Part shown: piece by piece, positions 1 to 2,414 of the stretch
Layout: each line of letters begins with the position of its first letter
Numbering within the stretch: position 1 is the stretch's first letter
Assembly (NCBI RefSeq): GCF_009931435.1
Contig: NZ_CP043414.1
Direction: 5' to 3' (one strand)
Origin: Escherichia coli
Lineage (GTDB): Bacteria > Pseudomonadota > Gammaproteobacteria > Enterobacterales > Enterobacteriaceae
Length of the DNA: 64,000 nt
Program-made: the position numbers and the translations under genes
The notes under the pieces: generated by a model
Told to the model about the DNA's origin: nothing
Databases searched by the model: none
The model's input: only the letters and a program-made list of their open reading frames with translations

Positions 1-1820
1 CTGATGTAGAAAGCATCACCAAAACTGTTGGTTCCTTCGATAAGTGTTCCGGAAGTCGTGGAAGCAATTAATGCGCCGCCGGATTGTTGCTCAACATGCT
101 TAGCCTCACCACCGTCCTGAACCTCCAGAACGCCACCATTATTAAGTCTGGTGGTATCTGTTTTAGCCTCCTTCTGGACAATCAGCTTACCGCCAGCATC
201 AACGGTAGTATTTTTCGCCGTGGTTTTAGCCACTACCGTCAGTTCGCCGGTATTTTCCAGCACAACATAATTAGCCTCCCCTCCGGTAATAGTGAAGTGA
301 GAGAGCTTGTTGTATCCTTCAATATCAGTCCCTGCGCCCGTGTTGGCAACTAAAGCACTGCCCGTCTCCTGGTTAACCCCATGTGCGATACCACCGGTAT
401 AGACAATCAGCGAGCCTCCGGCGCTAATATTGCTGCCAGTTGCCGTACCATCTTTCTCAACAACCTGCCGGCTCCCGGAGGAGATATTTGTCGTGTCAGC
501 TTTCCCGCCGCTCTTGATATTTTGTGTTCCGCTGTTGATATTGGTTCCCGTGGCAATACCATGATTATTTATATTCTGTGTGCCACCATTAATTATGGTA
601 TTTGTCGCGTTTCCGGCTACGTCCATGGTTCCGCCGATATCTATTCGGGTCGCATCAGCTTTAGCATTCGCTAAAACTGACATTGTTCCTTTATCTTTAA
701 TAATTGTCTTGTTTGCCGAACCATATACGTCTAAATGACCACCGTTTTCCAGCAACACATTGTCTGCCACGTTATTGTGAATAGAGAATGCCCCTTCACT
801 ATTCGTACCGCTCACCGTCGACCTGTCAGTCATTGCTTTTAAAGCCGCGCCATCGTGCTGGGTAACATTCGTTGCCGTGCCCTCTCTAACATCAAGCACG
901 CCACCGGAATATATTTCAATAACATTCGAGGTGCTCCTGCTATCAACAATTTGCGTCCCACCAGAATAGATCGTGGTAGTGTGCGCCGTTGACGTGTTTT
1001 GCAGCGTCTGCATTCCTCCATTTTTAATGGTGGTTATTTGTGCAGTGCTTGAATCAACATCCTGTCGACCACCATCTATTGTGGTGTCCAGCGCATGGCT
1101 CTTAATTGTTCTTTGGTCACCTCCATTTTTAATGATAGTGTTTTCTACAATACTCGAATCTACATACTGTCGGCCCCCATCTATTGTTGTGTTCGTTGCC
1201 AGACTTCCTTGTGTGATGTTTTGAGAACCAGATGTATTTATCGTCGTACCGTCAACATGCCCCTGAGCTGTTACTGTTTGTTTACCACCATCAATGACAG
1301 TCCCGTTTGCTCTCCCTCCTTCGACGTATGAATTACCATTCTTAATTATCGTGCCATTGCTGTTACCATCCTTATAAATGTACTGATTGCCACCCTCGAT
1401 TAACGTGCCATTGCTGGTACCACCGTTATAAACTTGCTGATTGCCACTCGCGATTATCGTACCGCTAGAATTCCCACCATTATAAATTACCTGTGTACCC
1501 CCATGAAGGATTGTATTATTAGCTTGCCCCTGATAATTGTTATGGTTTGCTACATCTTGTTGTCCACCCATTTCAATAATACTTCCATTAGACACCCCAC
1601 CAAATACAGTCTGGTGGCCGTGATTAATGATATGAGTATCATTAGTTGTCCCCCGTTCATCTACTATTTGCTCGCCATCCACAGTTTCACCATTTACGAT
1701 ACCAGTAACGATTGATGTGAAAGCAGCCTCTCCAGGCTGGGCATATATCAAGGCAGATATCAATAAGGAAAGTACTGAACGGCGAAAATAATAGCGACTG
1801 GTCCTGTTCATAAATTTCAT
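1..1820 (-). CDS. Autotransporter-type adhesin-like beta-helix repeat protein (YcgH-like), N-terminal part; continues beyond window start
   Basis: Hand translation of the minus strand from ATG at 1820 (alternative ATG at 1811) gives MKFMNRTSRYYFRRSVLSLLISALIYAQPGEAAFTSIV... (signal-peptide-like), then Gly/Asn/Thr-rich repeats (…HGHQTVFGGVSNGSIIEMGGQ…). About 85 codons were checked with no stop. The frame is absent from the ORF track, consistent with no stop inside the window. Position next to ymgD/ymgG matches ycgH in K-12. Confidence 0.55.
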   Translation of the reverse strand, partial: MKFMNRTSRYYFRRSVLSLLISALIYAQPGEAAFTSIVTGIVNGETVDGEQIVDERGTTNDTHIINHGHQTVFGGVSNGSIIEMGGQQDVANHNNYQGQANNTILHGGTQVIYNGGNSSGTIIASGNQQVYNGGTSNGTLIEGGNQYIYKDGNSNGTIIKNGNSYVEGGRANGTVIDGGKQTVTAQGHVDGTTINTSGSQNITQGSLATNTTIDGGRQYVDSSIVENTIIKNGGDQRTIKSHALDTTIDGGRQDVDSSTAQITTIKNGGMQTLQNTSTAHTTTIYSGGTQIVDSRSTSNVIEIYSGGVLDVREGTATNVTQHDGAALKAMTDRSTVSGTNSEGAFSIHNNVADNVLLENGGHLDVYGSANKTIIKDKGTMSVLANAKADATRIDIGGTMDVAGNATNTIINGGTQNINNHGIATGTNINSGTQNIKSGGKADTTNISSGSRQVVEKDGTATGSNISAGGSLIVYTGGIAHGVNQETGSALVANTGAGTDIEGYNKLSHFTITGGEANYVVLENTGELTVVAKTTAKNTTVDAGGKLIVQKEAKTDTTRLNNGGVLEVQDGGEAKHVEQQSGGALIASTTSGTLIEGTNSFGDAFYI

Positions 1821-1960
1821 CCTCTGAAAAGTGAATACTGAGTAGCGGGTAAGCGACCTTAGCTCTGCTGCAACATCGGCCCACAGGCACCAGACCAGGG
1901 GATTCATCCTTAAGAGACAGCGCAAGTGTATTGTGTTCACCGCTCATCAAAGACATCATG

Positions 1961-1999
1961 ATGAAATGATGATATTCCGCATAAGAAAGAGGCATTTTT
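1961..1999. repeat. 39-bp repeat, copy 1 (upstream of the adhesin gene)
   Basis: ATGAAATGATGATATTCCGCATAAGAAAGAGGCATTTTT; 37 of 39 identical to 11607..11645. Confidence 0.7.
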
Positions 2000-2414
2000 A
2001 GACGCATCGCGCTGAAGTGTGGTTGAATAAAAATTAATCTTTTCAGATAAGACTGTCGTACGCTTATTCTGCGAAAATAAGGCCGTCGGCAAAGTAAAAT
2101 GACTCACATAATTGTTTCTGATGAATATCTTCTACTCACATGAATATTACACAATAATATTGATGCATCAGATTATCTTACCTTTACAACATCACGTTAA
2201 CAGCCAATGACACTTCTTGAATAAAAATATTGTCAATCAAAGAGTTATTTTTTATTTAAGATTATTCTCATTCAAGTAAAAGACATAATTCCTATCATCA
2301 CAGCCACGCTCATTTTGAATTATCTGAATAATAGCGAGCGTTCTTTAGTTAAGCAGGTCTTAATTGAAGACGAAATTATTGTGTGTGCAACTTACTTAAT
2401 ACCGGACATCTAAG

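What the first reader, a model, noticed from the sequence alone, without database searches (positions are those of the whole stretch)
1687..2007. Upstream ORF overlapping the adhesin start codon, beginning within the shared 39-bp repeat
The 106-aa minus-strand ORF (ATG at 2007; internal ATG at 1995 giving MPLSYAEYHHFIMMS…) ends at 1687, so it overlaps the adhesin start (1820/1811) in another frame. Such a leader ORF could couple translation to adhesin expression or simply be a shadow ORF; the conserved start shared with the second locus argues that it deserves a look.
Basis: inference. Interest (0 to 1): 0.35.

Follow-up and report, generated by a model that had tools for sequence, protein, structure and literature searches.

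The report
Chance ORF in conserved adhesin leader
The 106-codon reading frame upstream of this E. coli adhesin gene is not a gene: one base change removed a stop codon in a non-coding leader whose DNA sequence is conserved but shows no sign of coding for protein.

Summary
The ORF is real: 1687..2007 on the minus strand, 106 aa, with ATGs at 2007 and 1995, and it crosses the adhesin start (1811) in another frame. It is private to the window's rare E. coli lineage. In 120 of 122 homologous loci, and in a divergent third locus, the frame from ATG 1995 stops after 39 codons at a TGA that is CGA here (1878-1876).

The 39-codon frame does not behave like coding sequence:
- Only 4 of 36 substitutions are synonymous, against 43% in the adjacent adhesin CDS.
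- Third codon positions change least.
- All three start-codon positions are polymorphic.
- There is no Shine-Dalgarno sequence.
- No protein family matches.

RefSeq nevertheless carries it as "hypothetical protein" or "ATPase".

The second copy of the 40-bp repeat (11606-11645) is not upstream of an adhesin. It is an isolated patch in a prophage-remnant junction between trkG and iraM, and its frame stops after 12 codons.

What is real is a leader of about 190 nt (1999-1812) conserved at the nucleotide level upstream of ypjA/EhaD-type autotransporter genes. It occurs in 5289 of 5426 complete E. coli genomes and often lies next to a decayed phage invertase gene. Its function is unknown: there is no Rfam match, no structure signal and no covariation. 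Interest is low.

The parts
1687..2007 (-). The 106-aa ORF of the finding. It is a lineage-private read-through made of a 39-codon leader frame, 22 further leader codons, and 41 codons out of frame over the adhesin start.
1876..1995 (-). Position of the widespread 39-codon open frame (ATG 1995) and its stop. That stop is TGA in 120 of 122 other loci and CGA (1878-1876) in this window. PGAP annotates window 1995..1879 as an 'ATPase' pseudogene in the near-identical strain RMDEC465.
1812..1999 (-). Nucleotide-conserved leader upstream of ypjA/EhaD-type adhesin genes. The most conserved core is about 2003-1905, which is 94-96% identical between divergent alleles whose flanks are 73-89% identical.
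1960..1999 (-). Copy 1 of the 40-nt repeat, at the 5' edge of the conserved leader. It contains ATG 1995.
11606..11645 (-). Copy 2 of the 40-nt repeat. It is an isolated patch between trkG (3' end at 11745) and iraM (10687..11010 +). It is flanked by the end of Rac-like homology (11695) and a lambda ren-like fragment (11556-11452). Its frame stops after 12 codons.
1..1811 (-). 5' part of the AIDA-repeat autotransporter adhesin (ypjA/EhaD-like, at the ycgI locus). It runs off the window. The start is at 1811 with a Shine-Dalgarno AGAGGA at about 1826-1821.
1937..2107 (-). A 56-aa ORF in a third frame that overlaps the repeat. It is not the K-12 ymgJ frame, which is broken here by a TGA 11 codons after its GTG start.
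2172..2200 (-). The only sigma-70-like promoter match upstream of the adhesin (TTAACG-17-GATAAT). It is absent from the ypjA-locus copy, so it is not part of the shared leader.

Best explanation
The 106-aa ORF is not a gene and not a regulatory leader peptide. It is an accidental open frame in the non-coding 5' leader of a ypjA/EhaD-type autotransporter adhesin gene.

In almost all E. coli the frame from the ATG at window 1995 is 39 codons long and ends at a TGA. In the window's rare lineage a single T-to-C change made that stop CGA. The frame therefore runs on through the rest of the leader, across the adhesin's ribosome-binding site and start codon, and 122 nt into the adhesin gene in the wrong frame.

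The 39-codon frame stays open only because the leader's nucleotide sequence is conserved and is poor in potential stop codons. The leader itself, about 190 nt, is under constraint at the nucleic-acid level. It most likely serves as the adhesin's 5' untranslated or regulatory region. That last step is an inference and the mechanism is not shown.
For: Shown by tool results:
- The frame stops at codon 40 in 120 of 122 homologous loci. Only the window and its near-identical strain RMDEC465 read through. Two protein-database entries also read through.
- Across E. coli loci, 3 variable sites are synonymous and 19 non-synonymous, and third codon positions are the least variable (4, against 10 and 8). 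The adjacent adhesin CDS, as a control, has 33 synonymous and 44 non-synonymous sites with third-position enrichment.
- An independent divergent copy in strain TUM13936 differs at 14 nt, of which 13 are non-synonymous.
- Combined, 4 of 36 changes are synonymous. The probability of 4 or fewer at the adhesin's synonymous rate is 3.7e-5. The count is compatible with no coding constraint.
- Only 9 of 342 possible single changes would create a stop, so an open frame is expected by chance (P = 0.42 over 33 substitutions).
- All three start-codon positions are polymorphic (ATA, ACG, GTG; P = 0.006 for that concentration of variation).
- There is no Shine-Dalgarno pairing before ATG 2007 or ATG 1995 (+1.2 and +0.3 kcal/mol). 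The adhesin ATG 1811 scores -5.8 and the background median is -2.4.
- No Pfam or NCBIfam family matches. Only 8-9 weak 'hypothetical' relatives exist among billions of proteins.
- Strains with the read-through allele keep an intact 1558-aa adhesin.
- All three frames across the repeat are read by some predicted ORF in some strain: this sORF, K-12 ymgJ, and the window's 56-aa ORF.
- The leader is present in 5289 of 5426 genomes at 90% identity or more. It is 3-4 times less diverse than its flanks in loci with an intact adhesin.
Against: - The 39-codon length and stop position are retained even in the 12%-divergent TUM13936 copy.
- A start codon (ATG or GTG) is present in 58 of 60 loci with an intact adhesin but in only 32 of 47 loci where the adhesin is deleted. 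That would fit a function tied to the adhesin. However, the losses trace to very few mutational events.
- The strong nucleotide conservation of the sORF region remains unexplained.
- There are no ribosome-profiling data from a condition in which these normally silent adhesin genes are expressed.
Confidence: 0.8

Rival explanations
1. The 39-codon frame is a genuine upstream ORF whose act of translation, not its peptide, regulates the adhesin. It might do this by opening mRNA structure or by blocking Rho on a long leader. The window's 106-codon form would then be a derived allele.
For: - The length and stop are retained in 120 of 122 loci and in the divergent TUM13936 copy.
- The start is retained in 58 of 60 intact-adhesin loci against 32 of 47 adhesin-deleted loci.
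- The first 40 nt are pyrimidine-rich with C exceeding G, read directly from the sequence.
- The minimum-free-energy fold pairs CUGGUC (1897-1892, inside the sORF) with GACCAG just after the adhesin ATG.
Against: - There is no Shine-Dalgarno sequence.
- The start codon is the most polymorphic part of the frame.
- The open frame is expected by chance.
- No terminator-like site was found.
- The fold is no better than shuffles (z = +1.3) and there are no compensatory changes.
- Loss of the stop, which sends any ribosomes across the adhesin's ribosome-binding site, is tolerated with an intact adhesin.
- The held supplement of Stringer et al. 2021 (bioRxiv 10.1101/2021.07.02.450978) contains none of these gene names, neither peptide, and no coordinate near either K-12 locus. 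This is weak evidence, because the genes are silent in K-12.
Confidence: 0.1
2. The conserved leader encodes an N-terminal extension of the adhesin, that is, an extended signal peptide. The adhesin frame is open for 44 codons upstream of ATG 1811, with an in-frame ATG at 1907 preceded by TTCAGGATGAAT, a near-copy of the real initiation region.
For: The adhesin frame is open upstream in 57 of 60 intact loci. Many AIDA-type autotransporters carry an ESPR extension; this is established knowledge, and Ag43 served as a positive control.
Against: - The extension gives no ESPR hit at E <= 10, while Ag43 scores 4.8e-16.
- ATG 1907 is ACG in TUM13936 and ATA in one ypjA-type locus.
- A 7-nt insertion shifts this frame in one group of intact alleles.
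- Synonymous to non-synonymous counts are 6 to 10, which gives no coding signal.
- The AGGA abuts the ATG with no spacing.
- The most conserved core (2003-1905) lies upstream of this frame's start.
Confidence: 0.03
3. The region's real gene is ymgJ, the small protein annotated in K-12. The finding's ORF would be its out-of-frame shadow.
For: K-12 and many RefSeq genomes annotate ymgJ (61 aa) across the same repeat.
Against: - The K-12 ymgJ frame is interrupted in the window by a TGA 11 codons after the GTG.
- Its frame shows 18 synonymous and 50 non-synonymous sites, which is near neutral.
- It has no family match.
- The ypjA-locus copy replaces its 5' part with a pinH fragment.
Confidence: 0.05

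Closest known systems
RefSeq/PGAP 39-aa 'hypothetical protein' or 'ATPase' (WP_001131446.1, WP_074410593.1, WP_310983948.1)
   Same: It is the same reading frame and the same ATG (window 1995). In RMDEC465 the window's own sequence is annotated as an 'ATPase' pseudogene over 1995..1879.
   Different: Those entries are 39 codons long. The window's ORF is 102 or 106 codons because the stop is lost. The name 'ATPase' has no support: no Pfam or NCBIfam match, and a 39-aa peptide cannot be an ATPase.
K-12 ymgJ (b4594), an uncharacterised 61-aa ORF
   Same: It lies in the same leader, upstream of the ycgI adhesin remnant, and it overlaps the same 40-bp repeat.
   Different: It is in a different frame. 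It is broken in the window. It too lacks a coding signature.
Regulatory leader peptides and uORFs of enterobacteria (tnaC, mgtL, pheL; from established knowledge)
   Same: It is a short ORF in a long 5' leader ahead of a regulated gene.
   Different: It has no Shine-Dalgarno sequence, a polymorphic start codon, no terminator or antiterminator, and no structure signal.
Phage Mu com-mom (from established knowledge)
   Same: In both, a small upstream ORF precedes or overlaps the start of a cargo gene that sits just downstream of a phage DNA invertase gene. Here a pin remnant lies directly upstream of the leader in K-12 (pinH) and in TUM13936.
   Different: There is no sequence similarity to Com and no evidence of translation. 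The downstream gene is an adhesin, not a DNA-modification gene. In most strains the sORF does not overlap the start.

Membership tests
Protein-coding gene under purifying selection | Excess of synonymous over non-synonymous change, with third codon positions the most variable | tested here: not met
   4 of 36 changes are synonymous and third positions are the least variable. The adhesin CDS control has 33 synonymous of 77 sites.
Protein-coding gene under purifying selection | Reading frame and length conserved in orthologous and paralogous loci | tested here: not met
   The 106-codon frame occurs only in the window's lineage. 120 of 122 loci stop at codon 40. The 39-codon frame is kept, but that is expected by chance.
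Protein-coding gene under purifying selection | Membership of a protein family, or homologues beyond close relatives | tested here: not met
   No Pfam or NCBIfam hit. Only 8-9 Escherichia 'hypothetical' entries were found in two exhaustive protein searches.
Regulatory leader peptide (attenuation-type uORF) | Functional translation start: conserved start codon with a ribosome-binding site | tested here: not met
   All three start positions are polymorphic (P = 0.006). Anti-SD pairing is +0.3 to +1.2 kcal/mol.
Regulatory leader peptide (attenuation-type uORF) | Alternative RNA structures or a terminator between the uORF and the gene | tested here: not met
   No terminator-like site. The fold has z = +1.3 against shuffles. 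The consensus fold shows no two-sided compensatory changes.
Regulatory leader peptide (attenuation-type uORF) | Ribosome occupancy or an initiation peak | not testable with these tools
   There is only a literature check. The held supplement of bioRxiv 10.1101/2021.07.02.450978 has none of the gene names, neither peptide, and no coordinate near either K-12 locus. The genes are silent in K-12.
Translationally coupled overlapping gene pair | The upstream stop overlaps or abuts the downstream start (ATGA/TAATG type or within a few nt) | tested here: not met
   The stop lies 122 nt downstream of the adhesin ATG in the window and 65 nt upstream of it in other loci.
ESPR (extended signal peptide of type V secretion, PF13018) | Match to the ESPR profile in the in-frame upstream extension of the adhesin | tested here: not met
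   No hit at E <= 10, while the Ag43 control scores 4.8e-16.
Known RNA family (Rfam 15) | Covariance-model match in 1500-2500 | tested here: not met
   The only hits have E of 0.9 or more, to eukaryotic snoRNA and miRNA models, all far below their gathering scores.
AIDA-type autotransporter adhesin (the downstream gene) | AIDA repeat passenger domain | tested here: met
   PF16168 AIDA, E = 3.9e-67, 4 stretches in the 603 aa held in the window. PGAP calls it an 'AIDA repeat-containing protein' of 1558 aa in RMDEC465.

The most novel reading that the evidence does not exclude
The conserved leader of about 190 nt (window 1999-1812, core 2003-1905), and not the ORF, is an undescribed cis-regulatory element. 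It would travel with ypjA/EhaD-type adhesin genes as prophage cargo placed next to a Pin-type invertase gene. It would act as RNA or as a protein-binding DNA site, possibly with the 39-codon frame translated as a sequence-independent uORF.
Probability: 0.2. Interest if true: 0.4.

Novelty: not a real feature. Interest (0 to 1): 0.12.

Why it matters
The value here is mainly in cleaning up annotation. A 39-codon frame, and in this lineage a 106-codon frame, is predicted as a CDS in thousands of RefSeq E. coli genomes and is sometimes named 'ATPase'. It has no coding signature and should not be counted as a small protein or as a leader peptide.

The useful residue is the conserved non-coding leader shared by the ypjA, ycgI and envY-adjacent adhesin loci, together with its link to decayed invertase genes. 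These adhesins are silent in laboratory strains and their control is poorly understood. The leader is therefore a defined place to look for their regulation.

Tried and rejected
- **Genome-contig scan:** the 36-mer pattern was too strict and returned only two stray E. coli-like contigs in non-E. coli assemblies. Cross-species data therefore came from the metagenome scan and from E. coli genomes.
- **P0007 and P0008:** these 'frameshifted' homologues come from error-rich assemblies with many single-base deletions. I discarded them as evidence.
- **RNA element:** no Rfam match. The fold is no better than shuffles. The consensus fold shows only one-sided changes.
- **ESPR or N-terminal extension of the adhesin:** rejected.
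- **ymgJ as the real gene:** its K-12 frame is broken in the window and evolves near-neutrally.
- **Shared sigma-70 promoter inside the leader:** none was found. The one match (2200-2172) is absent from the ypjA-locus copy.
- **Plasmid or phage carriage of the leader:** the plasmid hits are non-mobilizable records from E. coli only, several of chromosome size. There were no phage hits. The ten IMG/VR contigs are all of the ypjA type.
- **Motif resemblances by eye:** I looked at Fur box, RcsAB box, RfaH ops/JUMPstart and CsrA GGA sites. None was convincing and none is claimed.
- **Literature:** no paper mentions the peptide. The genomic SELEX mentions of ypjA and ymgJ do not resolve a site in the leader.

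Full report
**What is at the coordinates**

The window is E. coli chromosome. Reading the minus strand from 2400 to 1500 gives an AT-rich intergenic stretch below ymgG (2415..2759, +). It is followed by an autotransporter adhesin gene that runs off the window start.

The adhesin has ATGs at 1820 and 1811. PGAP uses 1811 in the near-identical strain RMDEC465, where the gene is an intact 1558-aa 'AIDA repeat-containing protein'. The 603 aa held in the window match the Pfam AIDA repeat at E = 3.9e-67.

The ORF of the finding is real: 1687..2007 (-), 106 aa, ATG start, internal ATG at 1995. It is out of frame with the adhesin, crosses the adhesin's Shine-Dalgarno sequence and start codon, and stops 122 nt into the adhesin gene.

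**Whether the ORF is more than chance**

It is not. The window holds 51 ORFs of 90-150 aa, and 35 of them are shadows of longer ORFs. The stop-free run in the 449-nt leader is reached by 86 of 5000 composition shuffles. That run exists only because of the stop-codon loss described below.

A 921-nt query around the site matches 5382 of 5426 complete E. coli genomes, but only 18 at 99% identity or more. A metagenome scan with a 20-mer from the leader, together with loci fetched from E. coli genomes, gave 122 homologous loci of three kinds:
- the ycgI locus with an intact adhesin, as in the window;
- the ypjA locus;
- the K-12-like ycgI locus in which the adhesin's 5' part is deleted.

In 120 of 122 loci the frame from the ATG equivalent to 1995 is exactly 39 codons long and ends at TGA. 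Only the window and RMDEC465 read through, because that TGA is CGA at 1878-1876. The 106-codon ORF is therefore a private allele of a rare lineage. It consists of the 39 leader codons, 22 further leader codons, and 41 codons that shadow the adhesin's signal-peptide region.

**Whether the 39-codon frame is coding**

The evidence says no.
- Among E. coli haplotypes there are 3 synonymous and 19 non-synonymous variable sites. Third codon positions are the least variable (4, against 10 and 8). The adhesin CDS next door, analysed in the same way, has 33 synonymous and 44 non-synonymous sites with clear third-position enrichment.
- An exhaustive HMMER search turned up a more divergent copy in E. coli TUM13936. 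It differs from the K-12 ypjA copy at 14 of 117 nt. Thirteen of these are non-synonymous and only one falls on a third position.
- Combined, 4 of 36 changes are synonymous. The probability of so few at the adhesin's synonymous fraction is 3.7e-5. The count fits no coding constraint.
- The frame's persistence is uninformative. Only 9 of 342 possible single changes would create a stop, so the probability of no stop arising after 33 substitutions is 0.42.
- The start codon is not protected. All three of its positions are polymorphic (ATA, ACG, GTG; P = 0.006).
- Neither ATG has a Shine-Dalgarno sequence: +1.2 and +0.3 kcal/mol of anti-SD pairing, against -5.8 for the adhesin ATG 1811 and a background median of -2.4.
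- No Pfam or NCBIfam family matches. Two large protein searches return only a handful of Escherichia 'hypothetical' entries of varying length and frame.
- PGAP does annotate the 39-codon frame, as 'hypothetical protein' or under the unsupported legacy name 'ATPase'.
- Across the same 40 bp, different strains carry predicted ORFs in all three frames: this one, K-12 ymgJ, and the window's 56-aa ORF. The K-12 ymgJ frame is broken in the window.

**The 'second locus'**

The repeat is real: 40 nt, 38/40 identical, no match in shuffles. Homology stops after about 55 nt.

The second copy (11606-11645) is not upstream of an adhesin. It lies between the 3' end of trkG and iraM, at the icd/e14 prophage site. 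Rac-like trkG homology ends at 11695, and a lambda ren-like fragment follows at 11556-11452. Its frame is ATG plus 12 codons, then TGA. Only the 18 genomes of this lineage have this junction. It does not support a conserved start.

**What is really conserved**

The roughly 190 nt before the adhesin ATG (1999-1812) form an island of nucleotide conservation.
- Three divergent alleles were compared: the window, K-12 ypjA, and the ycgI-locus adhesin of strain 266917_2. Segment 2003-1905 is 94-96% identical in all pairs, while the flanks on both sides, including the CDS, are 73-89% identical.
- Within ypjA orthologues, pairwise diversity is 1.35% in 1999-1879, against 4.7% just upstream and 3-4% in the CDS. 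In loci that have lost the adhesin, the leader is no more conserved than its flanks.
- A search that does not depend on the 20-mer finds the leader in 5289 of 5426 genomes, at 8090 places, all at 90% identity or more.
- It is absent from the phage collection. In the plasmid collection it occurs only in 14 non-mobilizable E. coli records, several of chromosome size.

I could not assign a mechanism.
- There is no Rfam match.
- The fold is no more stable than shuffles (z = +1.3).
- The consensus fold has only one-sided changes.
- No terminator was found.
- No sigma-70 promoter is shared by the loci.

An in-frame upstream extension of the adhesin was considered, as a possible extended signal peptide, and rejected. 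It gives no ESPR hit while Ag43 scores 4.8e-16. Its ATG (1907) is ACG in TUM13936. A 7-nt insertion breaks the frame in some intact alleles.

**Context**

The leader-adhesin unit sits directly downstream of a decayed Pin-type invertase gene in two places. One is K-12, where the remnant is pinH. The other is TUM13936, where e14-like tail genes, an invertible tail-fibre segment and a recombinase remnant precede it, next to envY. This suggests the unit is prophage cargo. It also suggests that the isolated 40-bp patch at the e14 site in the window is a relic of such a unit. Both points are inference.

**Verdict**

The translational-coupling idea fails on four counts: frame conservation, substitution pattern, start-site features and geometry. 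The remaining open question is what the conserved leader does. A sequence-independent uORF cannot be fully excluded without ribosome profiling under conditions where the adhesin is expressed. The held supplement of a K-12 initiation-profiling study contains none of these gene names, neither peptide, and no coordinate near either K-12 locus. These genes are silent in K-12, so this is weak evidence.

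Noticed in passing
window 84..353 (+): An 89-aa ORF antisense to the adhesin is the homologue of PIRT-seq 'CDS87 (in-ypjA)'. That study lists it among out-of-frame intragenic CDS candidates in K-12 and SPA-tagged it (PMC12350097 supplement).
   Followed up: partly
window 11400-11760: A mosaic junction at the icd/e14 prophage site. Rac-like trkG homology ends at 11695. Then come about 50 nt of unique sequence, the 40-bp leader patch, and a lambda ren-like fragment (11556-11452, 79%), followed by iraM. Only 18 complete genomes share it.
   Followed up: partly
L145/L148 (E. coli TUM13936, NZ_CP134358.1 3499924-3510043): A third chromosomal locus for the leader plus a ypjA/EhaD-like adhesin (1118 aa), next to envY. 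It lies immediately downstream of e14-like baseplate and tail genes, an invertible tail-fibre segment and a truncated invertase. This suggests that the adhesin unit is prophage cargo.
   Followed up: partly
window 1995..1879 and RefSeq WP_074410593.1 / WP_310983948.1: RefSeq propagates the product name 'ATPase' for a 39-aa predicted peptide with no family support. In the window's lineage it is annotated as an 'ATPase' pseudogene 'missing C-terminus'.
   Followed up: yes
window 2107-2140: The K-12 ymgJ reading frame (GTG start) is stopped in the window by TGA after 11 codons. The window instead has a 56-aa ORF (1937..2107) in another frame.
   Followed up: yes
window 1954-1963, 1900-1915 and 1812-1829: The conserved core contains a perfect 10-bp palindrome, CATCATGATG. 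The leader also holds two near-copies of the initiation-region motif, TTCAG(A)GGATGAA(A)T. One is at the real adhesin ribosome-binding site and one is 86 nt upstream. Their function is unknown.
   Followed up: no
window 1332-1493 and 1015-1192: Tandem 54-nt units (3 copies, 67-78% identical) and a 105-nt-spaced repeat lie inside the adhesin CDS. They correspond to the AIDA passenger repeats.
   Followed up: no
K-12-like ycgI loci (type C), for example L127 3065..3408: In loci where the adhesin's 5' part is deleted, homology to intact loci ends at window-equivalent 1841. In these loci the leader loses its extra conservation, and start-codon and frameshift variants of the 39-codon frame are common: 15 of 47 loci, though from few mutational events.
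   Followed up: partly
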